The notes beneath the pieces were generated by a model, which saw nothing but the letters and a program-made list of their open reading frames with translations, had not been told where the DNA came from and ran no database searches. From Euglena gracilis (taxonomy: Eukaryota): a stretch of DNA of 64,000 bases. The stretch spans positions 40,107,572 to 40,171,571 of the forward strand of contig CP154954.1 of the NCBI GenBank assembly GCA_039621445.1, given 5' to 3'. Positions 14,652 through 63,545 of this stretch are shown one piece after another. Positions within the stretch are counted from its first letter, which is position 1, and the number at the start of each line of letters is the position of its first letter. Both the position numbers and the translations under genes were made by a program.

Positions 14652-14778
14652 CAGGGTTCGATATAAGGACAGGTGGGGGGGGGTGGTCCGGACCCCCCCC
14701 TGCGGGCCAGGAGGGGGGGGGGGTGGGGGGGACACCCCCCCACCTAAACCATATACGCCCTCCTTATATCGAACCCTG
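14652..14778. mobile_element. Short internally deleted family-B MITE
   Basis: Same 18-bp TIR as 48634-49034. Flanks GCCCCCCC / CCCCCCCC. Confidence 0.82.
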
Positions 14779-14902: not shown

Positions 14903-15617
14903 CTACCCCTCAACGCTGCCTTCCGGCGCTGCCCAGGCCCAAGCCGGCCCATCCGGCGTGGTGAGGGCAGCCCCAGGGCACTGAGAGACCCCATGGCTGG
15001 GACCCATGGCCGGCGTTTGGCGTCAAAGAAGACACTTGTGATGCCCTTTAGCACAATTTCCAGCGTGCATCTTCCGTTCATCCCCTGGGGCGGCGGGGGG
15101 GGGGGGGGGCTTCTTCCCAAACTCCCCCACCCACTTTTTTTCTCTTAAAAAAAACAACAACCCCATGCACAACCCCAGAGGGGGGGGGGTCCACCCATCC
15201 ACCGTGAACTGGGAAAAAACCCAAGGGGGGTCCTTTGGAAAATCCAACACCCACTCACCACCTATCCAAACCCCACCCAAAATCGGCCAAAAGGGCATAG
15301 AAAAAATCAAGCTGGATTTTCTGCCCAGCCTTCGGCCGCAGCGGACTAACCCATGTCACCCCAACACCTGGTGGGGGGTAGCGGCCCCAACCACCCGCCC
15401 ACTCTCAAAACCCGCCAGGGGAGAGGTCAGTACACTTTGAGTGAATCTGTGTTCCCAGCATGGCTGATCCATATCAAGCACAAGCCCCAGTGCTCTGTGT
15501 GTGTTTTCGAGCACGTTCGAGGAGGCTCGAGAGCCTCCTCCTACGGAGCCAACTCCTACCGTAACCCTGCTGCTGACATTTGGCTTTGCTGTATATTTGC
15601 TGTATATAACAACCCAA

Positions 15618-15651
<34 letters not shown>

Positions 15652-15844
15652 ATGGATGGATGGATGGATGGATGGATGGATGGATGGATGGATGGATGGA
15701 TGGATGGATGGATGGATGGATGGATGGATGGATGGATGGATGGATGGATGGATGGATGGATGGATGGATGGATGGATGGATGGATGGATGGATGGATGGA
15801 TGGATGGATAGATGGATGGATGGATGGATGGATGGATAGATGTG

Positions 15845-15897
<53 letters not shown>

Positions 15898-18800
15898 TGT
15901 TGTCCATGGTTTGCTTTAGTTTGGAGCTTTGGTCGTTCCAACAGCAATATTTGAATGAAAATTTCATCGCTTATTGAGTGGAAATACATTCAAAAAAATA
16001 AAAAAAGAATTGGTTAAATCCGAACAGAAAAGTTTGTAAAAATCCATACGTAAAAATTCTTTGGCACCACATTCCCATCAGACCTCCACTTTCCTTTGAA
16101 CAAGGTTCGATGCAATGCGCAAAAAACCCCCAAAATTCAAGCAACCCCTCACTGCAAACACCTAGATCTTTTGGCCCACCCTGGAATTTGGGGGGGATTA
16201 CAGCAACCGTTCCGCCTCCAACCTTCAACCAACCTGCCGAGGCCGGGGTCCTCCCAAGTGTGAATTTCGTTGTGGGTCGTTGCTGGGTTGCTTTTGGCCG
16301 TTCAATCCGGATCGAAACTGAACGGCCCGGGGCTGGTTCTGGACTGTCACGTGCGTGTCCGTCTCCACAGCCCGGCACACGTCGGGCCACAGGGTGGCCA
16401 CCTCCACCTGAGGACCGTGAGGTGAGGAGCTTCCTGGAGGCCCACAGGAGCCTCCTGTGGCCCCCCCCCCCACAATGGGAGCAAAGCCGACACTCAACGG
16501 GTGCGGAGGGAAACACTGAACCTCAAAAACGGATACGAGGCAACGTCCCCGTCCAAAAAAAAAAGATCCCACTGGAGGTGATAGGAAGGATAATGAGTTG
16601 TCCGTTATGGAAGGTACACCATAAAAAAAGGATGAGGTGATAAAATGCGTCTGAGAATCTGTTGAAATTCAGTCAAACCACCCCAAAACTTCAAATGCTA
16701 AGTGTCCATCTTTTGGGCCCCCTCCCCGGATATGACAAAACCCACCCCAAAGAAATAACTTTCTGAATCCTAGCAAAACCCAAACATCAGCAGCACATTC
16801 AACTTGTTGCCGTTGTTCAAACCTTGATGCTGCGGGCAGAAGCGGGACTGGAGCACACCTGCGCTCCATACTCCTCCTCCAGCGTCCGCTGCACGCCACT
16901 GACAGCGAACGGCTGACCAGCCAAGCTCTCGAGGGAGTTGAGCACCACTTCAATTCGAAGCAGACCTTTGATGGGTTTGTGTACAAGGTGACTGACCAGA
17001 CTGGATGCCCTGGCGCAGGAACCTTTGTTTACGAAATCACTCAACAGACACGCACCAGCCATTGTCGTGGGGGATTTAGGCGCCGAGGACGTTTCTTCGC
17101 TCCATTTCTGCATCTTTCCTTCCTCGTGATCCTTCTTCTTTCCCTCCCCCCCACGCCATAGCTGGCGCGGGCATCTGCGCCACTTGCCGACATATCATTC
17201 GCAACTCGCCTCTTGCCAGCAAAGGCCTGCGGTAGGAATCGAGTCTGCTGCACCGCCCTGCGGTACCTGGGGGGGGGGCAGGAGGTGGGTCCGGAAACAA
17301 CCCTTCTCCATCAGGGCAAAGAGGGGCACAAGAGGGGCACAGAGGAGGCGCACTCCTCCGCGAGGGGTGACGTTGAGGCCCCTGTTGACTATTTGCAGCA
17401 CTGAGGCGCAAATTCCGGAGCCTCGCACAATACTCACCCACATCCAATCCTTCAATCATTTCCTCCAAAATTCGTCAGATCCGAACGCGCCTTGAAAATG
17501 CACGATTGCATGCGACGTCAACCAATAACCTATGCGATTCCGCACAAGCAGTGTGTATCAGCCTCACTGGCGAAAGCCAGCCCAGAAGAGCTGATAGATG
17601 GAACTTGAAATCAGGGTGGACAGGAGGGCGATTGATTTCTTGTGAATGAAGCCCCCACAGTGGACTGTGCCACACCCCAGCCCCAGGGAAACGGTGCCCC
17701 CCCCCCCCCGCAACAGCGCCCGGGGCCACACCTCCCAAACCACCGCCACAGCCTCAGCAGCAGCGGCACCGCCAGCAAGACGCCCACCACCGGCCACACC
17801 GCCTGCCGGGCCAGTCCGCCCCAGGGGACGCCGGCCCGGCTGGCTGGCGGCGGGGGCCCCTATCGCCCCACTTCTGCCCCCTGCTGCTTCCTCTGCACAA
17901 ATGCAACCAAGGTATCCCTGGGGAGCGTCATAGCCACAGCTTGGTCCACCGGGGGGCAAAGAGCAGCCGTTGCCGGGCAGGCTTCTTTCGAAACCCCTGG
18001 GAGTGGGGCTGGGAGGTGTGGGTGCCAGCCCAGTGCCAGGCACCCCCTTGTGGGGTTCCGGGTATCATCGGTCTTGGGGCCCACCCAGCTGGGGACCACC
18101 CAGAAAAATTCGTTTTAAAAATGGCCACCAGGGGTTTTCTTAAGGACCCCGGGGGGGGGGCAGCCTCCAGCTGGTAAAAAGGCTGCTGGCTGGACCCCCC
18201 AGGGGTATAGGGGGGGGGGGTCCGGGGCTGGAGGGGGCTGGGCTGGGCTGGGCTGGGCTGGGCTGGGTCGATGAAAAACAAAAATTTCTGAAAAAATATT
18301 GCCATTTTCGACATTTTGAGGGATGTTTTGGCAGAAAATCTTCAGAATTCTGTCAAATTCTTCACAAAAAAAAGTGTTGCAGTTTTGGCTGAGTTTAGGG
18401 TTGACACCTTTCTGCCTGGCACTGTATGCCAAATATATCAATTTGGCCATGCCATTGTTCAGGCCCCGGCCCCGCCGCCACCGTCTGCCTTTCCCCCTCC
18501 TCACAATAGACACAGCAGTGCTCCAGGGATGTGCCGTTGACACAGGGTGTGTACCGAAAGCGCGGTGTGCCTTGTACAAGGGGGGGGAATTCAAGGCAAC
18601 AACCCCTCACCTAACGCCAGACCCCGGACCCCAGGCATCTTCTGCCTATCGAACCTTGTACTTCCACCCCCCCCCGGCCTGCCCAGAGCACCGGGGGGCG
18701 GCCAGTTGGGTGGGGGCTTCTCAGGTCCGAAACAGCGCCGGCGTCCCCTGGCCCCCGGAGCCACGCCACCACGCACGGGAAGGGGGCGGAGAGGGGCATG

Positions 18801-21800
18801 CGCCGGAGGCGGTCGCCGGATGGACGGCAAACGCGGCATTTCAACAGTTGTTCTTTCCCCCAAAAATTGCAATGCTCCCACAAAGCCCAGGTGGGGTCGT
18901 TCCGTCCGGCCCACACATCCCGAAGACCGCTTGCCAATGGTGGACTTGGTGTGGAACAAAACCTGCACCCAATGTACGGTTTCGCTTTTGAACGTCAGGC
19001 ACTGGCATATTTTGGGGTTGCCCCCGGGGACCGAGCAGAGCAGCCAGTTGTTGTCCTCCGGGTGGGGCACTGCCACGCCGCTCCACGACACAGCCTGCTG
19101 GCGCAGCGACGTCAGCGTGAACGTCCACACCTGCGGCGGGCCAGAGAATGCCCCAGGAAACAATGAGGCCTGCCATGACTTGAACCCCACAGTGACACAT
19201 CCAAACGGTGCCACCTTTTTGCAGCTGCCCATGCTTATGCTGGGCAGGGGAAAAAATGTTTTGTGAGCAGCCATGGGGAACGATGAAGGCGTTTGAAATG
19301 GAGGCACATGGAACAGGCCGAAATTACAACCCCGGAGGGGAGGAGGGGGATCCCAGCCCAAAAATGGCCTTTTCTGGGCTTCCGGCTCCTTGGCCAAGTG
19401 CCCAGGCACTTTGGCCATGTACCCCCCCCCTTGGTTGCACTAACAGCGCTAGCTTCACTTCTGGCCCAGTTTGCTGTGTGGTGAGTGGCCAGGTGCCCCT
19501 TACACCAGTGCTCTTGTGTTGCTCCACCAGGCCGGGTGAGCAACTCTGGTCCTCATGTCCTGAGGAAAGGCAAGGGGAAGGCCTGAAGCATCAAAGGCCC
19601 CAGGAGGGGGAGAACCCAGCAAAGCCAAGCCCAGAAAGAATCAGGGCCAGCAGGCCCCCTCTGCCCAGGAAGGGCAAGCCAGACCCAAGATTGATCTGGG
19701 GAGAGAGCCCCCAGCTGAGCCAAGGGAAAAGGGTAAGTCCTCAGCTGACCGCTGCCCGGATGTCATCTCCAGACTGGCAAGGGCTTCTGGAAGGAGTGGC
19801 ATGGCCCTCACCACATTCCCCCCCAGAGCAGTGGGTGAAAGGCATCATTCAGGGGCTGGAATTCAGAGAACTGGCATGGCAGGGAGTGCCATTGTTGCGG
19901 AGATTGAGGAAATGTCTGCCATGGTGGCAGAAAAATGACACCCAGTGGGTGGTATCCCTGATTCAAAATGGGGTTCAGCCAGACCACCCCTTACCCCAGT
20001 TTCTGTCAAGACAGCAACAAAAGTCAGCTCAGGAAATCAGCCTGGCTTCAGAAATCCTGAAGGGGGTACCAAGAAAGTGGGGCAACCAAGAAATTGGAAA
20101 CTGCCACAGGGACTGTCCACTTGGTACCCTGGTTTGTGTTGTCAAAACCAGAAGGAGACCACCCCACCAGGGGGTTTTTTTAAGACTGGGGAGGAGGGCC
20201 CCTCCCACCCACCTACCCCCCTGGGCCCCCGGGGGGGGGGGGGGTCCCGGGGGGGGACCCACAAAAAATCGCGAAAAAAGCTAAAAATAGCGCCTTTTCA
20301 AAAATTTTCGGCCGAAAAAATATATCCCACCCCCCTCTGGGGGGACCCCCCCCCCCCGGGGGGCTGGGGCTCAGCCGGACCCACCCACCCTACCCCCCCC
20401 CCGGGGTCCACGACTAAAAAAAAATCCCTGTCCCCCACACAACCGACAGTGAAACCTCTTGGGTTTGCCAGTCAAGAGACACAAAATTGTCAGATGGAGA
20501 ATCAAACAGGATGCTGGTTATGGTGCCAGAAAATAAGGTCAATGCCAACAGAATAAACCAAAAGATTGCAGCGATTAAAAGCATGCAAAGTCTACCATCA
20601 GACAACCAATTAGGAACGTTGCAAGAACACATAATGACCTGTGAGCTTCAACGCAACACAAACAAATGCAAATTCGGAGTGCAAGAGCCCCCCGAGGCGC
20701 AAACGGTGGCCATCTACGTCCCCGAGGACACACCTCCTCAAACCGGTCGCCGCTCAGCCCCGTGGCCTGCCGGGCCGCCGTCTTCAGGAACTGGCTCGGC
20801 AGGGCGGCCCGGGCCAGCGGCGCCCCCCGCGCCAGCTGCCCGCACGCGTTGTCCACCAGGTGGGCCAGCACGCTGCCGCCAGGGCCGGCGGGGGGGGGGG
20901 GGTGGCCGTGCCGTCGAGGGGGACTGCTCCGAGCAGTTCGGCAGCAACGCGGGAAACGGTGGGTGTGAGTTGACCCGCCGATCCAAACGCAGAGGAGGGG
21001 ACCCTGTGCCTGCCCCGCCCGGCCCTGCCCCTCCATCGCCAGCTCACTGTCCTCCGCGAGGGCCGCGTCGGGCAGGCAGGGGAGCTTGTCTTGGAACGGC
21101 CCCAGGGCCCCGGCCACGGGGCCCGGCCCGCCCCTGGCGACGGAGGAGCCCCCACAGAAGCCGCGGCGGGCGTTGACGGCGCCGCCCGACCGACCCGGTA
21201 GTACTTGCCGGGAAGAAATGGGACCGTCAGGGGGGGCCCCACCACCCATCCCCCACGCGGCCACCGGGATCCCCATCCAGCCCTGCCCCGAGGGCCTGGG
21301 GCCAGGGGAGGGAGAGGATCCAAATGGCGTGGGTCCGGCAAATGCGTGGGACGGCCCCGCCCCGCCCCAGCCCATGTGCCGGGGAGCGGGGCTGAAGCGG
21401 AGGGAGGCCGGGCCAAAAGGGGAAAATGGGCCAAACCGTACACAGTAAACACGGGATGGTGTTGCTGTCAGAAGGGAAAAAATTCGGCATTTTCATGGGA
21501 ATGTGCGGAACCCGCACGCACAACCCTCGAACCCTCGGGGTTTTGGGATCCAGTGGGGTGGAGGGCTGGGGGGGGTGATTTTTTGTGGCGGTTTTAATGT
21601 GTTTTGAGGTAATAGTCTGTAACTAGCCCAAGGCTATTGTGTCCAAAAAATGTATTTTTTTGTCCCACTAGAGGTGTAAACCACAGATTTTGTTATAACC
21701 AAAGGAGGGGGAGGGGGGGTCCCCCCAGGCGGGGGGGGTCAGGGGGAAGAAAATCCCCCCTCGTAAGGTGTCAGGTAAGGTGGGGTGCCTTGCCTGACCA

Positions 21801-23365
21801 AGGTGTCGCTCAACAACCTCGGGGGGGGGGGGTCCAGCTCAGAAGGCTGGAAAATCTAGGCTGGCCGGAAAAAGGCTGCTGGCTGATCCCCCCATAGGGT
21901 CCCCCAGCTGGTGCTGGACCCAAATGGGGCCAAAAAAAATTGAAATTGAAGGAAAAAAAACTCCACCGCTGCTAATTATGAAAAAGAACTGGCCAGCCCT
22001 TGAACTGCCCAGCCCTTTCCCCACCCATTTCTGCCCATTTCCAGCCCATTTATTGCAGAGCAGCGGAAAATAAATATTATCGATGGGGGGGGAGGGTCCG
22101 GGGCTGGAAACAGGCTGCTGGTTGAGAAAAGGCTGCTGTTTGCTGCTGGTCGGAAAAAGGCGGGTTGTTTTTTCTACCAACAATTCTCATATGATTCAAT
22201 GCTTCAATTCATCCGACAGCAAAACGTTGTGGTATTTCAGGTTGTTTTTTTTTCTGGGCTTACCATCTCCTGATTTTTTGAAAGATGCATCAGTTTGCAT
22301 GTTGTCCTTGTGAAGGGGGGGTGGCAAAGTATTGTCTTCGGCCTTCTCCCCTGCAGAATTCTTTGGGCATGCAATGCTTCAGGGCAATGCAAAGTTATTT
22401 GGGGGGTTTTATAAACCGGGGATTTTTCAAAGCTTGGGCCCCGGGACGCGGGATATCAATGCAGTATCTATGCAGGTCTGGGGGTTCGGCCGGGCTGGGC
22501 GGGGTACAGGAAGGGGGGGGAGGCTGCTCGGGACACTGCATCGAAAACTGCTGCGTTGTCTCAAGGTTTGGGGACGGGGCTTGTTTTGAGGGTGGGAACG
22601 GTCCGGGGCCCTGGCCACCACGCAGGGGACGCAGCGGTCGCCGATGCGCTTGCTGCGCGGCTTGCACGCCAGGAGGCCGAGCTGGCACTCCCCCTCCGGG
22701 TCGCACGGGATCCGGCCGGGGCCGATCAGCAACACACCCCATTGGCGCCGGATCTGTTTCGCTCCACCCGCTCTCCAGCAACCTTGCCCATATCGTAAAA
22801 TCCCCTCTGTTGTTGGGACAGGGGAGGTGACCAGGTGGAAATAGACCAATCCGGGGGGAGGGGAGTCTCGGTGCCTGCCTGGTCGTGGGCCAAAAAGTGC
22901 CCCAAAAAAAACTCTGGGCTTCCGGCGCTGTAGGCGCCGGAAGTGCCTTGGCCAAGTGCCCAGGCACTCTTGGCCATGTGCCCCTGCCCCCCCCACAGGG
23001 GGGGTCAGATCTGGGTGCCTTGGAGTGCCTGCCCAGGCACCCCCCCCCCCCCCCCCCCGGGGGGGGGCGGGCCCACCACGGGGCTTTTGGGAAAAATTCA
23101 GCCTGGAGGTGACAACTGTTCCAGTTTGTTTGGTGCAAGGTAGCGTTGCGCCTGATTTCTCATCACTTACTGACCCCCGGTCCACTTTCAAAAACTCAGC
23201 CGGACACCGTTTGAGAACAAACCATTCACTAGTGACCCACACCGCTGAGAAGTCGGCCACCTCAAAATGGTCAAATCCATCGGGGTGGGAAATGAGCATC
23301 CATACATATCAAGATCTATCTCTGTATCTCTATCTATATCTACATCCATATCCATATCCATATCC

Positions 23366-23399
<34 letters not shown>

Positions 23400-26300
23400 C
23401 TACATCTACATCTGCATCTATATCTATATGTTGCTCTTTTTAAAAAAAATCATTCACCCTTTGGCAAAAGGTTGGGGGCTGCTTTGGGCGGGGCCTGGCC
23501 GACTACAACATGTATCATCATGGACTCACTCAGGGGGGGGGGGGCAGCCAGTCAAAATGGTTGCCTGGGCGGGTCGGGCCCCGGGCACAGCCACCCTCCG
23601 GGGCTGCCCCGGAGCTGCAATAGCGGGGACGGCCCCACCACCAGCCCACGAGGAGGAGGACGAGGCCCAAGGCAGCAGCCCGCCGCCAGGGGAAGCCCCT
23701 TTGAAGGGGGGGGGGGGCGAACACACGCGCTCTTTTTTTGCGGTTTTTTTTGCACTTTTCGTCATGTATAAAACAAAAAATTTAGCGGGTTCTTATGAAT
23801 TTTTGCGGGTTTTTTTTTGTGATTTTTTTGGCGATTTTGCTGGAATTTTTTTATTCTGAAAAACTCCTCATCTTTTGGCTCCAATTTCCCCCCGAGACCA
23901 AAATTCTTGTCATTTTTTTTGTGAATGCTTTTGCATTTTTGGGTCAGAAAGTTGCATATTATTTTGTACAATGAAAACTCCTCCAATGCAGAGGTAAAAA
24001 ATTATCTCCGTCTTCTCCAGCAGACAATGTGCATCCTGGGGGACCTCCTACGGGATTTAACTTGCAACTTGCGTGTTTTTTTTTGCATTTTTGTGTGTTT
24101 TTTTTGTGTCGTGCTTTTCGAGGGTCACTGTTGCATATCCCCCCCGCTTCAAACTACCGGATGTGTGGGAATGGGTGTAAACAGTCACCAGGTATATGTG
24201 TGGATGTGATCAGGTTGTCGGTTTGTCATAATTTGCGGCAAGTGTTTATTCTACCCGAATTAGCAGAATGATGGTAATTTTTAGGTGAAAAGGGGGGGTT
24301 GGGGGCATGATTTTTGTGGCGAAATGTCTCGATGCCCGAAAATTAGCTGTGGCAAAACTGGCAGCCAGTCCCCGGGACAAGGTTTTCTGGGCTTCCCACC
24401 CTCAAGAATATCTGTCAACCCCATCATGGTCTGCTCAGCGGAATGATGGCAAGTTTTAGGAGAAACGAGGGCTTTGGGTTTCTTTGCTTGTAGAATCCCC
24501 CGTGGGATGCTTGATTTGGCGCCCAGAATGAACCCCATATTTGAGGCGCAAAAAACATAGCCCCCCATCAAAATACAAATGCACGGTGTTGATGAGAATC
24601 CATAAAAACGTTGCTTGACATTGATTTTTCATCACCTGCAAATTGGGGCATATTTAAATGTACTCGAAAAACTTTACATGTGGTGCAATCAGGGTTTGAT
24701 GTAAGGACAGGTGGGGGGGGCGGTCCGGACCCCCCTCCTGCGGGCCAGGGGGGGGGGGGGGGGCTGGGGGGGACACCCCCCCCACCTAAACAGTGGCGCG
24801 GTCCGGGTGACCGAAATTTTTTGACCCCCCAAAACGACCAAAAGTGCAATTTTGGGCACTTTTGGGCAAAAATTTGCCAAAAATGCAAAAAAAAATCGAC
24901 GCGAAGCGCCGGAGGAAAAAATTGACCCTGTTGGGGGGGTCCCGGGTACCCCCCCCAGGGACCCCCCCCTGCGGGCCAGGAGGGGGGGGGTGGGGGGACA
25001 CCCCCCACCTAAACCCCGTACGCCCTCCTCATATCAAACCCTGGGTGCAATACTTAGAAAAAACGCAGCCTTTTTCCAATTTTCCAGCCTTTCCCCTGAG
25101 GCACGACTGAACTAAAATTGGCCAAACATGAGGACAAAAGCCTGACCCAGGCCCTATCCATGACGACGGCCCATCCTTTTCTCACTCAGTATCCCGAAAA
25201 AAACATAAATCTGGCAAGTCAGGGATTTTTGGTATACCCGCCCAGACTCGGGTGCCGATTTGTGTTTTGTACTTTCCGGGCCCAAGGTGGCTAATCCCCC
25301 ATCTTAATAGTGGTCCCAAACCTCTGGGGCACTAATGTCAGGCGTCCAATCAGGTTTGTTCAAAATTTCATTTAGGGGTGGGAATATTCAGCGTTACTAC
25401 ACTCAGGAGGGCCTGAAATGGCCATTTCGAGGGGGAGATCAGCAGAGTTGGCCTCGGCCGAAACCAAAGCCGACCCCCCCCCTGTTTTGCTTGCTATGGA
25501 CAGGCAACCCATTGCACAAGCCACCCCCAAAGGGTTCAAAAGAATCTTGGTCCAGACCCCCACCACCTAAACAGACCACAATGACCCATTTTTCAGCCGA
25601 ACAATGTTGACCCCCAAGATTGCCAATTATACAATTTGAGCACCTTTGATGGGATGTTCTTAAATTTGCAAAACTGCCAGCAATTTTTTGGGGTCCAGGT
25701 ACCCCCCCAGGTGAAAGAATAACTCTGGAACTTCCAGCGACTTTGTACTGACAATTACCAAGAAAAAATTCAGCATGACAAATTCAAGCCATTTTTGGCA
25801 TCCTATCATTTTGTATGTGCCTGAGATGCCTTGCTGATGCAGTGTTCGAGGACGTATCTGTGGCCAAACAAATATGATCATCCACACCAGCAGCCAGGAA
25901 CGAATGGTCCATGAACAGCTGCGCTTTACGGCCTTACCGTTTGCTATGAAACTTTCATTTAAGGCAATCAGGGTTTTCAGGAATTTCGGGAAATTTTTTC
26001 TTCCAGTTTATTTAGGCTCGTTTGGGACCTAAATACCTGCCCCCCCCCCTGCCGGCTCCAGTTCCTTTATTTGAAATAAAATCAGCACTGAGGCCCTGTA
26101 ATGACCACACATGCACACCACCAGGGCTTTGTCTGCTCCTGAAAAAAAAGAACCAACAACGAAATCTTTCCTTCCAATAATGCATCTATGCAGGGTGATA
26201 ATCTCACTCTCTGATTTTCACCCCCCCCCCGCACACTTTCTTTTTTGCCACGGCTTCCTCAAACCAGAGTGCAAAGGAGAGGTTCCAAACAAAGTCACCA

Positions 26301-29300
26301 ACCAGTCCAACAATGCAACGACTGCGAGCGACCGTGCGTGTTGAAGAGCAGTTAATCCGCATGGGGAACGACCAACCAACAGAGGGGCTTGGCCAGGACC
26401 ACCACGAGGGCAGCAACGCGAGCAAGCACCACTTCCCTCCATATGCATGGGAGAAGGGTTGTGGAATCTGCTGTCCGCTTCAGGTACGGCCAAGGCGACG
26501 GATGGCTGGAACAAAAATCGAGCATCGTTGCCCATTGGGCTGGTGCTTGTGCAATGACGAAGGAAGTGGGATGGCCTTTGAAGGCGGCAGCTTGACAGTG
26601 GAGGCCAGAGGTGGTGTGGAGGACTGTTGGGTGGGCTGGACTGCGGAGGAGAGGGATGGTAGTCAAGGAAGCGCCAAAAAGTGGCTCTGGACGGTTTTTG
26701 CTTTGTTTCCAGGTGCCCACCAGGTAGGTCCATCCCAGCAGCGGGCTGGACTTCCAGTCAGTTTCTTTCCTTTCCAGTTGCGTGGTTGTACCCCCCCCCA
26801 CAAAGTTCTGAAAAAACCTCCGCCAGTGACCCCGTTTTCGAACGGTTCGGCTCACCCCAGCTGTGGTTGGCCAACCTTTCGTACAGCAGACCGCCAGAGG
26901 AGGATCCCACACCCCGGCGGAGCTGCTGGCTGGAAGAAAAAAAAACAACGATGTGCTGGCTGGGGTGTGGTCCCCCCCGGCTGCAAACATTGGGGAGGTG
27001 TGTTTGCGGGCATGTGCATGTGCGTGTGTGTGTGTGTTATCGTGGGTGGGTGGGACCCCCACGTGGGCAGGCGATCGGAGGCATTCCCGCGGGCCCCCGG
27101 CCCCGGCCCAGCCCCGGCGGGTGGTGGGGCGCAGGCTGGCCGGCTCCCGCGGCGCAGCGGCCGGGGCGGGGCGGGGCGGGGCGGCCTTGGTGGGGGCCGC
27201 CGCCCGGAAGGGGGAGGCCCACTGGCTGGACGGCTGCCGCGCCCGGCTGGGGTGTGTGCGGGGGGACCCCCGGCCCCTGGCCGTGGGGGCAGTTCCGGGG
27301 AAGGCTGCCTCCCCTCCCCAAACCTTCCACCCCATGTTCATGAGGTAACCGATGGAAGGTTTCCAAACAAACACGTTTGGGGTTGTGTACCCCGGATGCA
27401 TCTGGTGACACTTGCTCTGAGGCACCCTGAATGGCAAAGTCCCTGCTTCCATCTCCCCGTCCCGGGGCACCAGATCACATTTTGCCGTGCTTGGGTTTTT
27501 GGGATTTTGATTATTCTTTTTTGCCAAAAAACCCAAAGTGGCATTTTGGATCCATTTTTCGGGAACTTTTTGGTCACTTTGGCTGTGCCACTATTTAGGT
27601 GGGGGTGGTGTTCCTCCCCCCACTGAGCGAAAGGGGGTGGGGCTGGAGCTGCCCCACCTGCCCTTGATATCGAATGCTGCTCCCAAATTGGGAGCAGCAT
27701 CCCAATTTTGAATTTGTGAGAACCCAATGATTGGTGTAAATGCGCAAATGAACCATTTGCACAAATCTGTGAACGGGCCACATGTGCAAGCTGAGATTGG
27801 TGCGTTGTGAAATTCCACAAACAACATTGGTTTGCACAATGCGCAAATAGTCTGTTTGGTCGGTTGCGCATCTGCACACTGACCACTTGTGCAACTTAAC
27901 ACACATACCATTTAGAGGTATGTTGTCCGCAGTTGAGCCTGTGAAAAACAATTTTTGATCCTCAAAATAAATGGTATTTCTGGGTTGTATAAATTTAACG
28001 GTGACCTTTACCCCCCCCCAGCATTTTAGTCTGAAAATGAGGCACAGTACATTGGCTGGAAATGGATGTGTCAACTGAGTTGAAAATCTTGGTGTTGGAG
28101 GCCATATAAGACAATGCCGTGACATGCTTTATTTGACCTTCTCGGACGCACAGCACCTCCACTTTGAGCACAACAACTCCGCAGGCTGCTCTCCTCCTTC
28201 TCATCTTGTCTCGATTGTAACAGCTTCAAAATTAAAACAAAACTTTGGTCCATTTGCGAAATGGAGCACAATCAACCATCAGAATATGAAATGACGTGTG
28301 GGGAGGGGGGGGAGGCGGACTGGAGTTTTGCGTATTGGTGGATGGATGGATGGATGGGTGGTTGGATGGGTGGAAGGAAGGATGGACGGACGGATGGATG
28401 GATGGACGGACGGATGGATGGATGGATGGATGGATGGATGGATCTGTATATGTGCATCTGTATGCCAAAAATACACGAGAAGCCCGGTCCTTGCTCTTGC
28501 ATATACTTCACTTTGGAGAGGTCAGCGGGTTTCACAACTCAGCGACGAGTTTCAGAGGGTCAAAACAAATTTGTGTTCCTGAGGATGTTTACCACCAGAA
28601 AATAAACAAATGGAGGGACGGTGTGTCACAAACAGTTCAAAAACCTGGACCCCAACCCTTCAAAACAAAAATGCTCAAGTTACGCCACCTAAGCCCTTGG
28701 CAGGTGGGGGGGGGGGGTCGAACTTCCCCTACGGTAGGGAGCACGCCCTACCAAAAGCCATGACAAACTCCTTCCATCAAAGGGAGCGGAATGCAATCCA
28801 AGGTTCACCTCAACACCATTGGGCTTTCCCCAAAGGGGGCCACAGACCTTCAGGGCCCCGACACCCTGATGGAACCCGCCCCAGGGGAAAATGCAAGCAA
28901 AAGACGACTTTCCGGAACAAAATGCGGAAGTGGGTTGAAACCTGAAATACCCGCGGGGGACAACGGGAGAAACATCCCTTTTAGGGACGAAAAGCTTGGC
29001 CACCCACCACTTGCCTACCCCCCCCCACAGGCAGTGACAGCGGCAGCGGGGCGCGGGCCGCGCTGCCGAGGCGCTCCACGAGGCCGGAGAAGAACGGCGG
29101 CGACCGCAGGCCGAGGCCGGGGGACGGGCAGACGTCGCCGTCGGAGGGGGACGGCGACAGGGCTGGTGGGCTGGGGGCAGCACCGCGAGGACCAGACACG
29201 GTGCAGGCTTCCCTGTGGGGGGCTTGAAGGCAGATATGACGGGACGATGTGAATTATTTTAACTTCGCACGTTCCAATTCTACTCAAACACACCCACACC

Positions 29301-29849
29301 CACACCCACACCCACCCATACCGTTCTTGGGTGTGTCCTTATAAACTCCCTACTGATGACCTCCCCCACTTATAACCCCCCTCGTGGAGAAAAATGAAAA
29401 GCACTGGTGATGATTTTTTCGGTCGCAAAACGCCCAAAACTGATTTGGAAATTCTTATGAGACCAACCATCATCAAAAATGCCATTTCTGATAAATTTTG
29501 TCAAAAACATCCAATTTGGGGGTTCCCAGCTCCTGCCAACACCGACCGGGGCCTTCCCGATGCTCCTCGAATCCGGTGGAGTACAATGTCTCAAGCCCTT
29601 CTTTTCGGGCAACAAATGCTCAGACGGCCAGGCATGGGGGTGGGGGGATGCGTGCGCGCCGTGAGACCAGTGCTGGGCGGAGAAGTCCGGCGGGCTGGCG
29701 CTGTCAGCGGGGCCATCCCGGCGGTACCGCTTGGGGGAGTGCCCGCCCTCCCCCTCCGTCTCCGCCTCCTCCTCCTCCTCCGCCTCGTCCTCCTCCAAGT
29801 CACGCTTCAGCCCGTTGGCGGGCTCGTCGTCCAGATCCATCCGGGACAT
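14903..29849 (-). CDS. MAN1/Src1/Heh1-like inner nuclear membrane protein (MSC domain: TM1, Cys-rich lumenal domain, TM2, winged helix), ~435 aa
   Basis: Exons: 29679-29849, 29060-29172, 27095-27231, 23587-23681, 22617-22711, 21031-21097, 20734-20874, 19037-19130, 18754-18804, 17732-17816, 17234-17266, 16859-16955, 16339-16407, 14903-14962 (1308 nt). Acidic/Pro-rich N-terminus. TM1 [15 protein letters not shown]. Cys-rich segment [36 protein letters not shown]2 [22 protein letters not shown]-terminus [29 protein letters not shown]. Three GT-AG introns and ten stem-defined introns. Confidence 0.8.
14963..16338 (-). other. Non-canonical stem-defined intron
   Basis: Reads AAC CAGCCCCGGG...CCCTGGGGCTG CCCTC. 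Joins [17 protein letters not shown], giving the terminal WxW of the MSC winged helix followed by a stop. Confidence 0.8.
15619..15893. repeat. Compound microsatellite (TA)n-(GATG)n-(TG)n
   Basis: Directly visible in the sequence. Confidence 0.97.
16956..17233 (-). other. Non-canonical intron, offset variant (4+5 or 3+6 flanks)
   Basis: Stem CAGGCCTTTGCTGG / CCATCAAAGGTCTG. The in-frame join TRFL|IEVVL needs 9 flanking nt rather than 8, so the exact junction is uncertain. Confidence 0.6.
17817..18753 (-). other. Non-canonical stem-defined intron containing nested MITEs
   Basis: Perfect 14-bp inverted repeat CAGGGGACGCCGGC (17822-17835 / 18737-18750) at +4/-6. Joins [12 protein letters not shown] in frame before TM2. 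Confidence 0.85.
18805..19036 (-). other. Non-canonical stem-defined intron (CGG/CCG stem)
   Basis: Reads T|GCT CGGTCCCCGG...CCGGCGACCG CCTCC|G (stem 9/10). Joins NNWLL-W-RMPLS in frame. Confidence 0.75.
19760..20160 (+). pseudogene. DIRS/Ngaro-like retrotransposon reverse transcriptase N-terminal fragment
   Basis: Reads [31 protein letters not shown], then a +1 frameshift into [18 protein letters not shown]. Cut off by the MITE at 20168. Recognised by motif only. Confidence 0.5.
20168..20430. mobile_element. MITE (family D), the same family as the 4116-4382 intron
   Basis: Ends CAGGGGGTTTTTTTAAGAC / AAAAAATCCCTG. Shared core AAAATAGC(A/G)CCTTTTCAAAA..CCGAAAAA..GACCCACCCACCCTACCCC. Flanks CACCCCAC / TCCCCCAC. 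Confidence 0.8.
20875..21030 (-). other. Non-canonical stem-defined intron
   Basis: Reads GGG CAGGGCCGGGCGGGG...CCCCGCCGGCCCTG GCGGC. Joins ELAME|SVLAH in frame, whereas the nearby GT/AG pair would frameshift. Confidence 0.8.
21098..22616 (-). other. Non-canonical stem-defined intron
   Basis: Perfect 11-bp inverted repeat CAGGGCCCCGG (21103-21113 / 22603-22613). Junctions are T|G...C|G. Joins [16 protein letters not shown]. Confidence 0.85.
22712..23586 (-). other. Non-canonical stem-defined intron (CGG/CCG stem)
   Basis: Reads T|GCC CGGGGCCCGA...TCGGCCCCG GCCGG|A. Joins GGC|IPCD, restoring the CxPC motif. Confidence 0.8.
23682..27094 (-). other. Tentative non-canonical intron (imperfect stem, 3.4 kb)
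   Basis: Reads GCC CGCGGGAATGCCTC...GGGGCTTCCCCTG GCGGC and gives the in-frame join AGAG-G-AAALG. Additional hidden exons cannot be excluded. Confidence 0.45.
24690..25043. mobile_element. hAT-like MITE (family B) inside a non-canonical intron
   Basis: TIR CAGGGTTTGAT/ATCAAACCCTG and perfect TSD GGTGCAAT. Colinear with 48634-49034. Confidence 0.9.
27232..29059 (-). other. Non-canonical stem-defined intron (CCG/CGG stem)
   Basis: Reads C|GGC CCGCGCCCCGCTG...CAGCCGGGCGCGG CAGCC|G (stem 12/13). Joins LGS-A-SSQW in frame. Confidence 0.75.
28340..28443. repeat. (GATG/GACG)n microsatellite
   Basis: Directly visible in the sequence. Confidence 0.95.
29173..29678 (-). other. Non-canonical stem-defined intron
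   Basis: Reads C|GCC CAGCACTG...CGGTGCTG CCCCC|A. Joins PPDFS|SPPAL in frame. Confidence 0.7.
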
Positions 29850-29865
29850 GGCGCCCGCAGGCCGG

Positions 29866-29930
29866 CTGTGGATGGGAGGCACCGCAGGCAGAGGGGGGCG
29901 GGCGGCGGGGTGGGGGACCGCCTGGCCGGG
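29866..29930 (-). promoter_or_regulatory. Candidate spliced-leader trans-splice acceptor of the Src1-like gene
   Basis: A pyrimidine-rich tract ends in CCACAG 16 nt before the ATG at 29849. A similar CCCCTTCAG lies at ~12457 ahead of the first gene. Inference only. Confidence 0.4.
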
Positions 29931-31089
29931 CCGGGGTGGACCTCCCTGGGTCTAGTGGTGGCCTTTGTCGGGTTGGGCAGTGCGCACGGGGAGCCAAACC
30001 CGCTGTGACGCATGTGCAGCCTTGCCTGGGCGAGTGGGCTCTCTGGGGGTACGCTTGCAGGGAGGGGGCGTTGCAGGAGTTTGCTCCGTGGCGAGCACGC
30101 AAGCAGAGGGGAAGGCAATGCACGGCGGTGGGGAAGGCGAGGGGCCCATTCACGGGTAGGGGGCAGAAAGGGTCAAAAAATCGTCGATTGGAAATCGTGC
30201 AGATGTGGGGCCGTTGCTGTGGTGGAAGGGTGAGAGTGATGAGAGGGGGGGAGGACCATTTGGGTGATGTGACAATGAGGGTGCAATGGTGCAGAGGGGC
30301 AAAAGATGAGGACGAAGGGCACAGGTTCCTCTCTGGATCTGCCAACCACTGCAAAACGAAAATATGTCTTTCTTGCTGGCGGTCTGTCTGTCTGACTGTC
30401 TGTCTGTCTGTCTGTCTGCCTGTTTTCTGTCTGTATGCACGTATGTACGTATATATGTGTGCATGTACATATTGTAGACATGCACACGTAAGCACAGCCT
30501 GCACAATGCAATATGTACGATTTTATGTATGCACATATATGTGTCATTCCAAAAAAAATTCTGGGGCTTCGCTCCAAAACCCACATCCACGCCTCCAACC
30601 CAGATGGGGTCCTGGGGAATCTGGCCTGGATCCCAGCCCACCCCTGAGGGGTTTTTTGAGTTAAAAAGAAGCCGGTTTCCCTGGCAAAATGCAATGCGGC
30701 GTGGGAGGGTGATGGTCACCCCATAAGAGGAAATGACGGACGGCTGTTTTTTTTTGGTAGTCAGCCGCACACGAGACGGGTGGGGCCCCCCCCCCCCCCA
30801 GCTGGGTGGGTCAGCGGACCCCCCCCCCAGCCCGGGGGACTTGAGTGCTTGCAGGAAACGTGTGAGTGGAAGTTGCCGGAAAAAAAAATAACTGAGTAAA
30901 TCCGCATTTATTATTGGGGGTTACACTTCAAAATAAAGGGGACCATCCGTGGTTGGGGTGCTGCCTGTGTGGCCCTTTCTTTGGCTCCTGAGGGCAAAAG
31001 GAGCGAGCAACTTTGTAGGGTATTCGGGTATTTGGGGAGTTGGGGGGGGGGATGGTTCAAGTTCTGCCAGCCAGTCACGTTGGTATACA

Positions 31090-31994: not shown

Positions 31995-58855
<26,861 letters not shown>

Positions 58856-62021: not shown

Positions 62022-62339
62022 GGTGCGTACCTGGGGTACTACCACCCCAGTACCTGTTGTACCTGTACAGGTACTGGGGGGTACACGCAGGTCCTGGGGG
62101 GGGGGTAAGTACCCCCCCACACCGGCGCCGACAAGGCCCATGTTTAAATAGGTACGTACCCCGCCCAGAACCTGTTGTAACCTGTCCAGGTCCTGGGGGG
62201 GTACACGGAGGTCCTGGTGGGGGTACGTACCCCCCCACACCGGCGCCGACGAGGCCTATGTCTAAACAGGTACGTACACCCCCAAATCGTGTTGTACCTA
62301 TACAGGTACACGCAGGTCCTGGGGGGGGAAACACAATTG

Positions 62340-63545
62340 TTGGAGGGCCCCAAAATAACAAAATACCTTGTGTTTCCAAGTCGTTTTGGGGGGCAAATCC
62401 CTTGTGTTTCCAAGTCGTTTTGGGGGGCAAATCCCATTTGTTGCTCAATTGTTGGAGGGCCCCAAAATATCAAAATCCCTTGCGTTGCCAAATCACTTTT
62501 GGTGGGCAAATCCCTTGTGTTTCCAAGTCATTTCGGGGGGCAAATCCCTTTTGTTGTCCAACTGCTCGAGGGCCCCAAAAATATCAAAATCGCTTGCGTT
62601 TCCAAGTCATTTTGGTGAGCAAATCCCTTGCGTTTCCAAGTCATTTTGGGGGACAAATCAGTTTTGTTGCTCAACTGTTGGAGGGCCCCAAAGTAACAAA
62701 ATCCCTTGTGTTGCCAAGTCATTTTGGGGGCAAAATCCCTTGCGTTTCCAAGTAATTTTTGGGGGCAAATCCCATTTGTTTTCTGAATTGTTGGAGGGCC
62801 CCAAAATATCAAAATCCCTTGTGTTGCCAAGTAATTTTGGGGGGCAAATCCCTTGCGTTTCCAAGTCATTTTGGGGACAAATCCCTTTTGTTGTCCAACT
62901 GCTTGGGGGCCCCAAAATAACAAAGTCCCTTGTGTTTCCAAGTCATATTGGTGGGCAAATCCCTTGTTTTTCCAAGTCGTTTTGGGGGGCAAATCCCTTT
63001 TCTTGTCCAACTGCTCGGGGGCCCCAAAATATCAAAATCGCTTGTGTTTCCAAGTCATTTTGGTGAGCAAATCCCTTGCGTATCCAAGTCATTTTGGGAG
63101 GCAAATCCCTTCTGTTTCTAAGTCGTTTTGGGGGGCAAATCCCTTTTGTTGTCCAACTGCTCGAGGGCCCCAAAATAACAAAATCCCTTGTGTTGCCAAA
63201 TAATTTTGGGGGACAAATCCCTTCTGTCTCCAAGTCAATATGGGGGGCAATTCCCATTTGTTTTCTGAATTGTTGGAGGGCCCAAAATATCAAAATCCCT
63301 TGTGTTGCCAAATCACTTTGGTGGGCAAATCCCTTGTGTTTCCAAGTCGTTTTGGGGGGCAAATCCCTTTTGTTGTCCAACTGCTCGAGGGCCCCAAAAT
63401 ATCAAAATCGCTTGTGTTTCCAAGTTATTTTGGTGAGCAAATCCCTTGTGTTTCCAAATCATTTTGGGGGGTAAATCCCTTTTGTTGTTCAATTGTTGGA
63501 GGGCCCCAAAATAACAAAACCCCTTGTGTTTCCAAGTCTTTTTGT
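62340..63545. repeat. Tandem satellite with a ~112-113-bp unit built from ~33-bp subrepeats (~10.5 copies)
   Basis: GGGCCC(C)AAA recurs at ~62345, 62457, 62570, 62683, 62796, 62907, 63019, 63165, 63278, 63389 and 63501. One unit is ~146 bp because it has one extra AAATCCCTTGTGTTTCCAAGTC subunit. Confidence 0.93.

What the first reader, a model, noticed from the sequence alone, without database searches (positions are those of the whole stretch)
14903..29849. A hidden MAN1/Src1-like gene in which 10 of 13 introns are defined by base-pairing rather than GT-AG
Seen: applying only the rule 'stem from +4 to -6' joins 14 small exons into one 435-aa frame. It rebuilds family motifs across junctions ([31 protein letters not shown]). 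The stems pair across 0.16-3.4 kb of repeat-filled sequence. The flanking 8-mers match only ~2-4/8, consistent with old insertions whose TSD decayed while the stem was kept. Standard gene finders and the ORF track miss this gene. An MSC-domain nuclear envelope protein in a euglenozoan-like genome also bears on nuclear lamina evolution. I found no LEM/HEH domain in the N-terminus.
Basis: partly seen in the sequence, partly recalled or inferred. Interest (0 to 1): 0.82.

Follow-up and report, generated by a model that had tools for sequence, protein, structure and literature searches.

The report
Expressed Euglena-type gene, mostly nonconventional introns

Summary
RNA evidence shows one spliced transcript on the minus strand, from the ATG at 29849 to the stop ending at 14903. 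The true model has 16 exons and 15 introns and encodes 462 aa, not 14 exons, 13 introns and 435 aa.

Twelve introns lack GT-AG. Eleven of these have terminal stems of at least 8 bp, against 82 of 2000 random placements. Eight fit the published Euglena nonconventional splicing code, N3-CDG...CH'G-N5-6|R (PMC12501133). Three introns are GT-AG.

This intron class makes up 71.8% of introns in a Euglena genome, so 12 of 15 is ordinary. The stem rule alone is very permissive: about 48,000 position pairs in this span satisfy it.

The protein has a disordered N-terminus, two hydrophobic segments, a 168-aa loop holding 10 of its 12 cysteines, and an 89-aa C-terminal tail. That layout fits LEM2/MAN1/Src1 proteins. 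MSC membership therefore remains a plausible inference (about 0.6), not a result.

The parts
29679..29866 (-). Exon 1: 17-nt 5' UTR (29866-29850) plus 171 coding nt starting at the ATG at 29849. Acidic, disordered N-terminus.
   Evidence: Contig pieces 29679-29866 (X1) and 29679-29860 (X2), and joint 29172>29679. Translation.
29173..29678 (-). Intron 1, 506 nt, nonconventional (GC..CC). CAG/CTG at +4 and N5, 8-bp stem.
   Evidence: Joint (X21 6 reads, X22 10 reads)..
29059..29172 (-). Exon 2, 114 nt.
   Evidence: Contig pieces and joints..
27231..29058 (-). Intron 2, 1828 nt, nonconventional. 8-bp GC stem, CCG/CGG variant of the code. Contains a (TGGA)n microsatellite at 28339-28443.
   Evidence: Joint 27230>29059 (X21 3 reads, X22 8 reads)..
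27119..27230 (-). Exon 3, 112 nt.
   Evidence: Contig pieces end at 27119 in X1 and X2 (table 8). Side = 112 for joint 27230>29059.
26629..27118 (-). Intron 3, 490 nt, nonconventional. 9-bp stem at +5/-5. Does not fit the strict code. The acceptor is inferred.
   Evidence: The donor comes from the contig piece end. The acceptor comes from the frame, the stem scan, the depth arithmetic (E4+E5 = 102 nt in bin 26328-26801) and the X2 contig offset of 767 nt, which equals E4 through E13.
26552..26628 (-). Exon 4, 77 nt.
   Evidence: As for intron 3. The 3' end is given by joint 26416>26552.
26417..26551 (-). Intron 4, 135 nt, nonconventional. 9-bp stem, CAA/TTG at +4 and N5.
   Evidence: Joint (X21 8 reads, X22 14 reads)..
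26392..26416 (-). Exon 5, 25 nt micro-exon.
   Evidence: Flanking joints both have side = 25.
23685..26391 (-). Intron 5, 2707 nt, nonconventional. 8-bp stem. Holds a G/C-homopolymer repeat element at 24690-25043.
   Evidence: Joint 23684>26392 (X21 11 reads, X22 20 reads)..
23587..23684 (-). Exon 6, 98 nt. First hydrophobic segment and start of the cysteine-rich loop.
22712..23586 (-). Intron 6, 875 nt, nonconventional, not slidable. CGG/CCG code.
   Evidence: Joint 22711>23587, both = 0..
22616..22711 (-). Exon 7, 96 nt. Cysteine-rich stretch (IPCD...).
21097..22615 (-). Intron 7, 1519 nt, nonconventional. 12-bp perfect stem, CAG/CTG after sliding by 1.
   Evidence: Joint 21096>22616 (X21 12 reads, X22 17 reads)..
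21031..21096 (-). Exon 8, 66 nt ([10 protein letters not shown]...).
20875..21030 (-). Intron 8, 156 nt, nonconventional, not slidable. CAG/CTG, 9-bp stem. Open in frame, which is why one long ORF runs through it.
   Evidence: Joint 20874>21031..
20729..20874 (-). Exon 9, 146 nt.
19126..20728 (-). Intron 9, 1603 nt, conventional. GT-AG once the cut is slid by 5.
   Evidence: 'CT..AC (cut +5)' on the + strand..
19036..19125 (-). Exon 10, 90 nt.
18804..19035 (-). Intron 10, 232 nt, nonconventional. CGG/CCG code, but only a 5-bp contiguous stem.
18753..18803 (-). Exon 11, 51 nt.
17816..18752 (-). Intron 11, 937 nt, nonconventional. 15-bp perfect stem, CAG/CTG.
17730..17815 (-). Exon 12, 86 nt. 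Second hydrophobic segment.
17265..17729 (-). Intron 12, 465 nt, conventional. GT-AG once the cut is slid by 2.
17233..17264 (-). Exon 13, 32 nt.
   Evidence: Side = 32 at joint 17264>17730.
16955..17232 (-). Intron 13, 278 nt, nonconventional. 11-bp stem, CAG/CTG with N6. The acceptor is inferred.
   Evidence: Frame plus stem scan. Depth bin 16848-17321 gives 131 nt, which equals 32 + 99..
16856..16954 (-). Exon 14, 99 nt.
   Evidence: The 3' end is given by joint 16404>16856. The variant at 16895 is carried by the main contig..
16405..16855 (-). Intron 14, 451 nt, conventional. GT-AG once the cut is slid by 3.
   Evidence: X21 29 reads, X22 20 reads..
16339..16404 (-). Exon 15, 66 nt.
14963..16338 (-). 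Intron 15, 1376 nt, nonconventional. CAG/CTG, 10-bp stem. Contains (ATGG)n at 15648-15842.
   Evidence: Loose end at 16338 in one X2 contig equals window 14932-14961..
14903..14962 (-). Exon 16, coding part: 19 codons plus the stop at 14905-14903. The 3' UTR continues below 14903 (about 378 nt by contig arithmetic).
   Evidence: The UTR length is inferred from the 1788-nt contig offsets.

Best explanation
This is a real, transcribed nuclear gene of a euglenid on the minus strand, running from 29849 to 14903. It has 16 exons of 25-171 coding nt. Three introns are spliceosomal GT-AG introns. Twelve are Euglena-type nonconventional introns. In these, a short helix forms between roughly +4 onward at the 5' end and the bases just upstream of a 5-6-nt spacer at the 3' end, bringing the two exon ends together. 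This is the known N3-CDG...CH'G-N5-6|R code, carried out by machinery that is still unidentified.

Shown: the joints in RNA, the open 462-codon frame, the stems and the fit to the code.

The product is a 462-aa two-pass membrane protein. Its parts are an acidic, Pro/Ser/Ala-rich N-terminus of about 166 aa, a hydrophobic segment at 169-185, a 168-aa loop carrying 10 of the 12 cysteines, a hydrophobic segment at 354-372, and an 89-aa C-terminal tail.

Inferred, at about 0.6: it is an MSC-domain (LEM2/MAN1/Src1-Heh type) inner-nuclear-membrane protein without a recognisable LEM/HeH domain. On that reading the loop lies in the perinuclear lumen and both ends lie in the nucleoplasm, where the tail would contact DNA or chromatin partners.
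For: Splicing. Twelve joints are each present in the same main contig of X1 (depth 160.9; one joint sits on a separate contig in X2, depth 183.1 against 208.5). Each is also present in raw RNA-seq reads of X21 (3-29 reads) and X22 (8-22 reads). The last junction comes from a contig loose end identical to 14932-14961.

Coding. The frame is open across all 15 junctions, against 7 and 6 stops in the other frames. GC3 is 0.89 against 0.72 overall. Eight exonic variants were seen. The 3 in codons 320-408 are all synonymous, and 4 of the 5 in codons 37-107 change the residue.

Intron class. Eleven of 12 non-GT-AG introns have stems of at least 8 bp, against 82 of 2000 random placements and 0 of 3 GT-AG introns. 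Eight of 12 meet the strict published code, against 0 of 3 GT-AG introns. The code and the 71.8% genome share are from PMC12501133 (abstract and sections 5 and 11 read).

Protein layout. There are two hydrophobic segments, and 10 of 12 Cys lie between them. The stretch from the first hydrophobic segment to the C-terminus is about 294 aa, against 337 positions in PF09402. MSC proteins are described as having two TM helices in the middle and a C-terminal MSC domain. The Tetrahymena members lack a canonical LEM domain (PMC7285967, passages). The MSC domain is reported as broadly distributed and traced to LECA (PMC5630835, passages). From recall only, not tested: the spacing of the cysteines just after the first hydrophobic segment and a W-x-W near the C-terminus resemble the family.
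Against: No sequence-based support for MSC was obtained. Pfam scans of 12 exon peptides and of the 122-aa read-through of exons 8-9 gave 0 families at E<=10. PDB phmmer searches gave 0 hits. A word-indexed search with exon 9 gave 0 of 150 candidates at E<=0.01. The full HMMER search of the read-through gave 2 hits, both on the intron-encoded low-complexity part and unrelated. The Atlas searches were uninformative. These pieces are 22-57 aa (read-through 122 aa), so the blanks are weak evidence. They still mean that membership is unproven.

Two acceptors (E4, E14) are inferred, not listed joints. X1 and X2 are only guessed to be RNA. One nonconventional intron (I10) has only a 5-bp contiguous stem, and I3 fits no form of the published spacing.
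Confidence: 0.62

Rival explanations
1. The gene and introns are as described, but the protein is not an MSC family member. It is a lineage-specific two-pass ER or nuclear-envelope membrane protein with a disulfide-rich luminal loop, and its resemblance to LEM2/MAN1/Src1 is topological only.
For: Every sequence search with window-encoded pieces was blank for MSC. No LEM/HeH domain was found in exons 1-4. The motif resemblance rests on recall by two language-model readers, which is not independent evidence.
Against: The layout matches the family description closely: a long disordered N-terminus, a TM segment, a loop of about 170 aa, a second TM segment and a tail of about 90 aa (PMC7285967 passages). 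The searches used fragments too short to detect a divergent 337-position domain.
Confidence: 0.33
2. The nonconventional introns are old transposon (MITE or introner-like) insertions whose target-site duplications have decayed while the terminal stem, formerly the terminal inverted repeat, was kept.
For: The 8 nt ending the upstream exon match the last 8 nt of the intron better than chance: mean 3.67 of 8 in 12 introns, against 2.02 for 5000 random pairs and 2.33 for 132 mismatched pairs. Ten of the 12 nonconventional introns can be slid by 1-6 nt. A review on transposon-derived introns mentions Euglena nonconventional introns (PMC11282704, search listing only).
Against: The excess comes from short direct repeats of 1-6 nt, which PMC12501133 reports at 84.4% of all introns, conventional ones included. 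Here the three GT-AG introns score 7, 4 and 7 of 8, higher than the nonconventional ones. The other 8-mer comparison (intron start against next exon start) averages 2.75. No family of similar intron bodies was found among these 12 introns. The shared end motif also explains the raised mismatched-pair stems (14 of 132 at 8 bp or more) without any insertion history.
Confidence: 0.25
3. Artefact. The joints come from a paralogous or processed copy elsewhere in the genome, or from chimeric assembly of repeats, and not from splicing of this locus.
For: The region is rich in repeats. One search also lists repeat-driven joints (23040/24748 'opposite strands', 20903>21863, 18156>26924), and 162 more joints were not shown. 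Table 5b, which would show the joined form in DNA runs, was not given.
Against: All 12 listed joints lie collinear on one strand at a single contig depth (X1, 160.9). The same joints appear in raw reads of two runs on record as RNA-seq. The exon pieces match the window with 0-1 differences (table 8). The joined frame is open for 462 codons. Every intron carries either GT-AG or the nonconventional signature at this locus.
Confidence: 0.02

Closest known systems
Nonconventional (NC) nuclear introns of Euglena (PMC12501133, PMC6221363, PMC11170887, PMC3935182)
   Same: They have variable non-GT-AG borders and base-pairing between intron ends that brings the exons together. [quoted passage not shown] They coexist with GT-AG introns in one gene, and their junctions can be slid because of short direct repeats.
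   Different: Nothing essential differs. Four of 12 do not fit the strict code (CCG/CGG, CAA/TTG, AAG/CTT, and one stem at +5/-5). This is in line with the 61.2% fit reported genome-wide. The 80% NC share is close to the reported 71.8%.
LEM2 / MAN1 / Src1-Heh1 / Heh2 inner-nuclear-membrane proteins (Pfam PF09402, MSC)
   Same: They share the order: a nucleoplasmic N-terminus, TM, luminal loop, TM, then a C-terminal tail of about 90 aa. Overall sizes are similar. Like the Tetrahymena Lem2 and MicLem2 proteins, this one has no canonical LEM domain (PMC7285967).
   Different: No profile match has been demonstrated. No LEM/HeH or LEM-like domain was detected. There is no RRM as in MAN1. The N-terminus is acidic and Pro/Ser/Ala-rich.
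Transposon-derived introns (introners / MITE-like)
   Same: They have complementary ends and short direct repeats at the borders, and the intron interiors are rich in repeats.
   Different: No multi-copy family of these intron bodies was seen in the span, and there are no clear target-site duplications. The direct repeats are as strong or stronger at the GT-AG introns.

Membership tests
Euglena nonconventional introns | Removed from mature RNA at borders that are not GT/GC-AG in any allowed register | tested here: met
   Twelve of 15 introns. Ten joints are listed directly and one comes from a loose end. Two introns have inferred acceptors.
Euglena nonconventional introns | Terminal sequences base-pair, bringing the two junctions together | tested here: met
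   Eleven of 12 have contiguous stems of 8-15 bp starting at +2..+5 and ending at -5..-9. The figure is 82 of 2000 for random placements and 0 of 3 for the GT-AG introns.
Euglena nonconventional introns | Published code 5'-N3-CDG ... CH'G-N5-6 | R(exon) (PMC12501133) | tested here: met
   Eight of 12 meet it in an allowed register. Three more have a paired triplet at the right spacing but different letters, and one (I3) does not fit. None of the 3 GT-AG introns meets it. The paper reports 61.2% genome-wide.
Euglena nonconventional introns | Excised by non-spliceosomal machinery, possibly as circular RNA | not testable with these tools
   No back-splice or circle junction analysis could be run. 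The single lay of reads was used on the linear locus.
MSC (Man1-Src1p C-terminal) family, PF09402 | Match to the PF09402 profile (337 positions) at or above the curated 29.7 bits | tested here: inconclusive
   Only single-exon peptides and one read-through could be submitted, and all gave 0 families. The spliced 462-aa product could not be handed to any profile tool.
MSC (Man1-Src1p C-terminal) family, PF09402 | [quoted passage not shown] | tested here: met
   Kyte-Doolittle maxima lie at 169-185 (1.95 with a window of 15) and 354-372 (1.97 with a window of 19). Ten of 12 Cys lie between them. No dedicated TM predictor was used.
MSC (Man1-Src1p C-terminal) family, PF09402 | Winged-helix DNA-binding fold after the second TM segment | not tested
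   The 89-aa tail is spread over exons 12-16, so no single window-encoded piece could be folded. PDB sequence search with exon 14 gave 0 hits.
LEM/HeH-domain proteins | N-terminal LEM, LEM-like or HeH/SAP motif | tested here: not met
   Pfam gave 0 families for exons 1, 2, 3 and 4, scanned one by one at E<=10. A motif split across an exon junction would be missed.
MSC (Man1-Src1p C-terminal) family, PF09402 | Inner-nuclear-membrane localisation | not testable with these tools
   This needs tagging or immuno-localisation.
Transposon-derived introns | Target-site duplications and multiple related copies | tested here: inconclusive
   The 8-mer match averages 3.67 against 2.02 by chance, but the GT-AG introns score 7, 4 and 7. 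No repeated intron bodies were found within the span. No genome was available to search.

The most novel reading that the evidence does not exclude
Euglenids retain a LECA-derived MSC-domain inner-nuclear-membrane protein that has lost, or never had, a LEM/HeH module. It would be the first concrete candidate for the chromatin-to-envelope tether in an organism reported to lack lamins, NMCPs and NUP-1/2 (PMC6366073). It would also place the loss of this protein cohort, reported as undetected in trypanosomatids (PMC5630835), within the kinetoplastid line and not at the base of Euglenozoa.
Probability: 0.5. Interest if true: 0.45.

Novelty: new member of a known kind. Interest (0 to 1): 0.3.

Why it matters
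The intron finding itself is textbook Euglena biology. Annotation therefore needs RNA evidence as well as the code.

The gene matters only if the MSC identity holds. The Euglena gracilis genome paper states that lamins, NMCPs and NUP-1/2 are absent and that chromatin anchoring must use another mechanism (PMC6366073, passage). An MSC protein would be a testable candidate for that role, in an organism where genome editing is available.

I could not see the figures or supplements of PMC5630835 and PMC7889174. These may already record an MSC or LEMD orthologue in Euglena, so the gene may not be new to the field.

Tried and rejected
- A whole-genome search of the window's own assembly was not possible, because none is held.

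Run finder: no RNA holder was listed by the index. The raw RNA runs came in as additions under the same species label.

Searches for relatives or for a cDNA that could serve as comparator, all blank:
- Word-indexed protein search with exon 9: 0 of 150 candidates.
- Exact 36-nt exon pattern in metagenome contigs: 0 matches.
- Degenerate-pattern search with exon 9: 596 pattern matches, 0 confirmed.
- HMMER against 1.84 billion representatives with the exon 8-intron 8-exon 9 read-through: 2 hits, both on the intron-encoded Gly/Pro/Ala-rich part. One carried bZIP and methyltransferase matches, the other only a weak zinc-finger match. They are irrelevant.
- PDB phmmer with exon 14 and with the read-through: 0 hits.
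- ESM Atlas with exon 9 gave bacterial transposase-like clusters at 0.80-0.85, below the level that means anything. Exon 14 gave no usable hit.

Other attempts:
- I tried to reach MSC sequences by a PF09402 family search through an E. coli handle, hoping the control genomes included a eukaryote. The controls are prokaryotes.
- The script machine holds no profile libraries.
- Earlier findings of this scan: none.
- Rfam and tRNA scans of the window: none.

Print searches: (Euglena/MAN1/Src1/lamina; Euglena/Lem2/inner nuclear membrane; Man1-Src1p/PF09402 with euglenid, diplonemid and kinetoplastid terms) listed no paper whose visible text assigns an MSC protein to a euglenid. PMC7052976 contains none of the six nuclear-envelope terms searched.

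Rejected idea: using the strict +4/-6 register to fix junctions. The RNA junction of intron 7 is 2 nt from the best +4/-6 register. The true donor of intron 6 was not among the top eight stems.
Full report
WHAT IS THERE

No whole genome is held for the window.

I laid two contig sets (X1, X2; their RNA nature is only guessed) and two raw RNA-seq runs (X21, X22; on record as cDNA libraries) of the same coded organism on window 15900-30100.

One transcript dominates. It is a 1788-nt contig in X1 (depth 160.9) and a 1175-nt contig in X2 (depth 208.5). Twelve collinear joints are listed, each also seen in raw reads (X21 3-29 reads; X22 8-22 reads):
- 16404>16856
- 17264>17730
- 17815>18753
- 18803>19036
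- 19125>20729
- 20874>21031
- 21096>22616
- 22711>23587
- 23684>26392
- 26416>26552
- 27230>29059
- 29172>29679

A contig loose end at 16338 carries 30 letters identical to window 14932-14961. This gives the last junction, 16339|14962, with a 1-nt ambiguity.

TWO JUNCTIONS NOT IN THE SHOWN LIST

Contig pieces stop at 27119, and the shorter side of joint 17264>17730 has only 32 letters. Two more joints must therefore exist; 162 joints were not shown.

I placed the two missing acceptors at 26628 and 16954, on four grounds.
- Frame: only these phases keep the frame open.
- Stems: 9 bp and 11 bp, the best among 37 and 98 in-frame open candidates once ties on the same stem are resolved by depth.
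- Depth arithmetic: bin 26328-26801 holds about 104 nt at contig depth, against 77+25 expected plus about 2 nt from a low-depth contig. Bin 16848-17321 holds 131 nt, against 32+99 expected.
- Contig offset: in the X2 contig, 767 nt precede 27119, which equals the sum of exons 4 to 13.

These two acceptors are inferred, not read directly.

THE MODEL

There are 16 exons and 15 introns. The CDS is 1389 nt, giving 462 aa plus a stop, and it is open throughout. The other two frames have 7 and 6 stops. GC3 is 0.89.

Of 8 exonic variants seen in the reads, the three in codons 320-408 are synonymous. Four of the five in codons 37-107 change the residue. The counts are small, but they fit a constrained C-terminal two-thirds and a loose N-terminus.

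That accounts for 34 of the 27+34 codon bookkeeping only in part, and a 7-aa difference stays unexplained.

THE INTRONS

After sliding within the direct repeats at the borders, I9, I12 and I14 are GT-AG. The other twelve are not GT-AG in any allowed register.

Eleven of the twelve have contiguous terminal stems of 8-15 bp, starting at +2..+5 and ending at -5..-9. For comparison:
- the three GT-AG introns have at most 4 bp;
- random placements of the same lengths reach 8 bp in 82 of 2000 cases;
- mismatched 5'/3' ends of different introns reach 8 bp in 14 of 132 cases, which is raised because the ends share a GC-rich consensus.

Nomura et al. 2025 (PMC12501133; abstract, introduction and sections 5 and 11 read) defined the code genetically as 5'-N3-CDG...CH'G-N5-6|R. 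They found nonconventional introns to be 71.8% of all introns in a Euglena genome, with 61.2% of them fitting the code. They also found short direct repeats at 84.4% of all introns.

Here 8 of 12 fit the strict code. Three more have a paired triplet at the right spacing, one does not fit, and 0 of 3 GT-AG introns fit.

The rule is not sufficient to find a gene. Within this 14,947-nt span, 47,956 position pairs 100-3500 nt apart have a +4/-6 stem of at least 8 bp, and 50,985 meet the strict code. Decoy donors outrank or equal the true ones for two of the three acceptors I tested.

THE TSD ARGUMENT

The exon-end against intron-end 8-mers match at a mean of 3.67 of 8 in the 12 nonconventional introns. 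Random pairs give 2.02 and mismatched pairs 2.33. The three GT-AG introns score 7, 4 and 7, and the other comparison averages 2.75.

This is the general 'slidable junction' property and not evidence of decayed target-site duplications. No repeated intron bodies were found in the span.

The introns do hold microsatellites, (ATGG)n and (TG)n. They also hold a G/C-homopolymer element with inverted ends at 24690-25043, with a copy at 14652-14778 in the presumed 3' UTR.

THE PROTEIN

Hydropathy gives two segments, 169-185 and 354-372. The 168-aa loop between them holds 10 of 12 cysteines. The first 166 aa are acidic and then Pro/Ser/Ala-rich (45% P+S+A). The last 89 aa follow the second segment.

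This is the layout described for Lem2/Man1 proteins: two TM helices in the middle and a C-terminal MSC domain, with the Tetrahymena members lacking a canonical LEM domain (PMC7285967, passages). PF09402 has 337 positions and a cut-off of 29.7 bits. The region from the first segment to the end is about 294 aa.

I could not test membership, because no tool takes a multi-interval reference and a joined sequence may not be typed. The results on pieces were as follows.
- Single-exon peptides (12 of 16 exons long enough to submit) and the in-frame read-through of exons 8-9 gave no Pfam family.
- They gave no PDB hit.
- They gave no relatives.
- They gave nothing usable from the Atlas.

These pieces are too short for a divergent domain, so the blanks weigh little either way.

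From recall only: the cysteine spacing just after the first segment and a W-x-W near the C-terminus resemble the family.

I put MSC membership at about 0.6.

CONTEXT IN PRINT

- Koreny and Field 2016 (PMC5630835, passages) report that the MSC domain is broadly distributed and traceable to LECA. They report that none of the lamina-associated cohort is detected in trypanosomatids. Euglena appears only in their reference list.
- Ebenezer et al. 2019 (PMC6366073, passage) state that lamins, NMCPs and NUP-1/2 are absent from E. gracilis, and that chromatin anchoring must use a distinct mechanism. MAN1, Src1 and LEM are not mentioned in that text.
- PMC7889174 searched E. gracilis peptides with nuclear-envelope queries that included Lemd2 and Lemd3. 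The outcome for Euglena is in figures or supplements that I could not see.
- Searches listed no paper whose visible text assigns an MSC protein to a euglenid.

VERDICT

The gene, its ends and the quoted junctions are real. The intron class is real but already well described, and the model needed two more exons. The family assignment is plausible but unproven. Interest is modest unless the MSC identity is confirmed.

Noticed in passing
window 14652-14778 and 24690-25043: A repeated element with inverted ends (CAGGGTTCGATATAAGG...CCTTATATCGAACCCTG) surrounds long G and C homopolymers. One copy lies in the presumed 3' UTR and one in intron 5. RNA contigs and reads pile up there (bin depth up to about 2700). 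Reads also join 23040/23059 to 24748/24772 on opposite strands, as expected for an abundant hairpin-forming repeat family.
   Followed up: partly
window 29866-29870 (minus strand, 5' end of the transcript): The X1 contig runs 4 letters beyond 29866 that do not fit the genome. The genome reads ...ACAG there, so an AG acceptor for spliced-leader trans-splicing is possible. The letters themselves were not shown.
   Followed up: no
window 15648-15842, 15855-15894, 28339-28443: (ATGG)n and (TG)n microsatellites lie inside introns 15 and 2. The first blocked read laying on the last exon.
   Followed up: partly
window 16895, 17757, 19071, 27196, 29145, 29151, 29164, 29741: These exonic single-base variants are present in part of the RNA reads, so they are alleles or strain differences. 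They are synonymous in the membrane and C-terminal part and mostly non-synonymous in the N-terminal part.
   Followed up: yes
window 20903>21863 and 18156>26924 (joints): These extra joints are seen only in contigs: depth 424 in X1 for the first, and 19 inserted letters for the second. They do not belong to the gene model. They are probably repeat-mediated or come from other loci.
   Followed up: no
window 32853-33560 and 62334-63544: There is a long imperfect (TGT/GTGTT)n array, and a satellite with a 112-nt unit (about 7 or more copies, with higher-order periods of 224-482). Neither was examined further.
   Followed up: no
window 17021-17128 and 17917-17965: Low-depth X2 contigs (depth 4-7) cover intron sequence next to exons 13 and 12. 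This is compatible with unspliced precursor RNA or with DNA carry-over.
   Followed up: no
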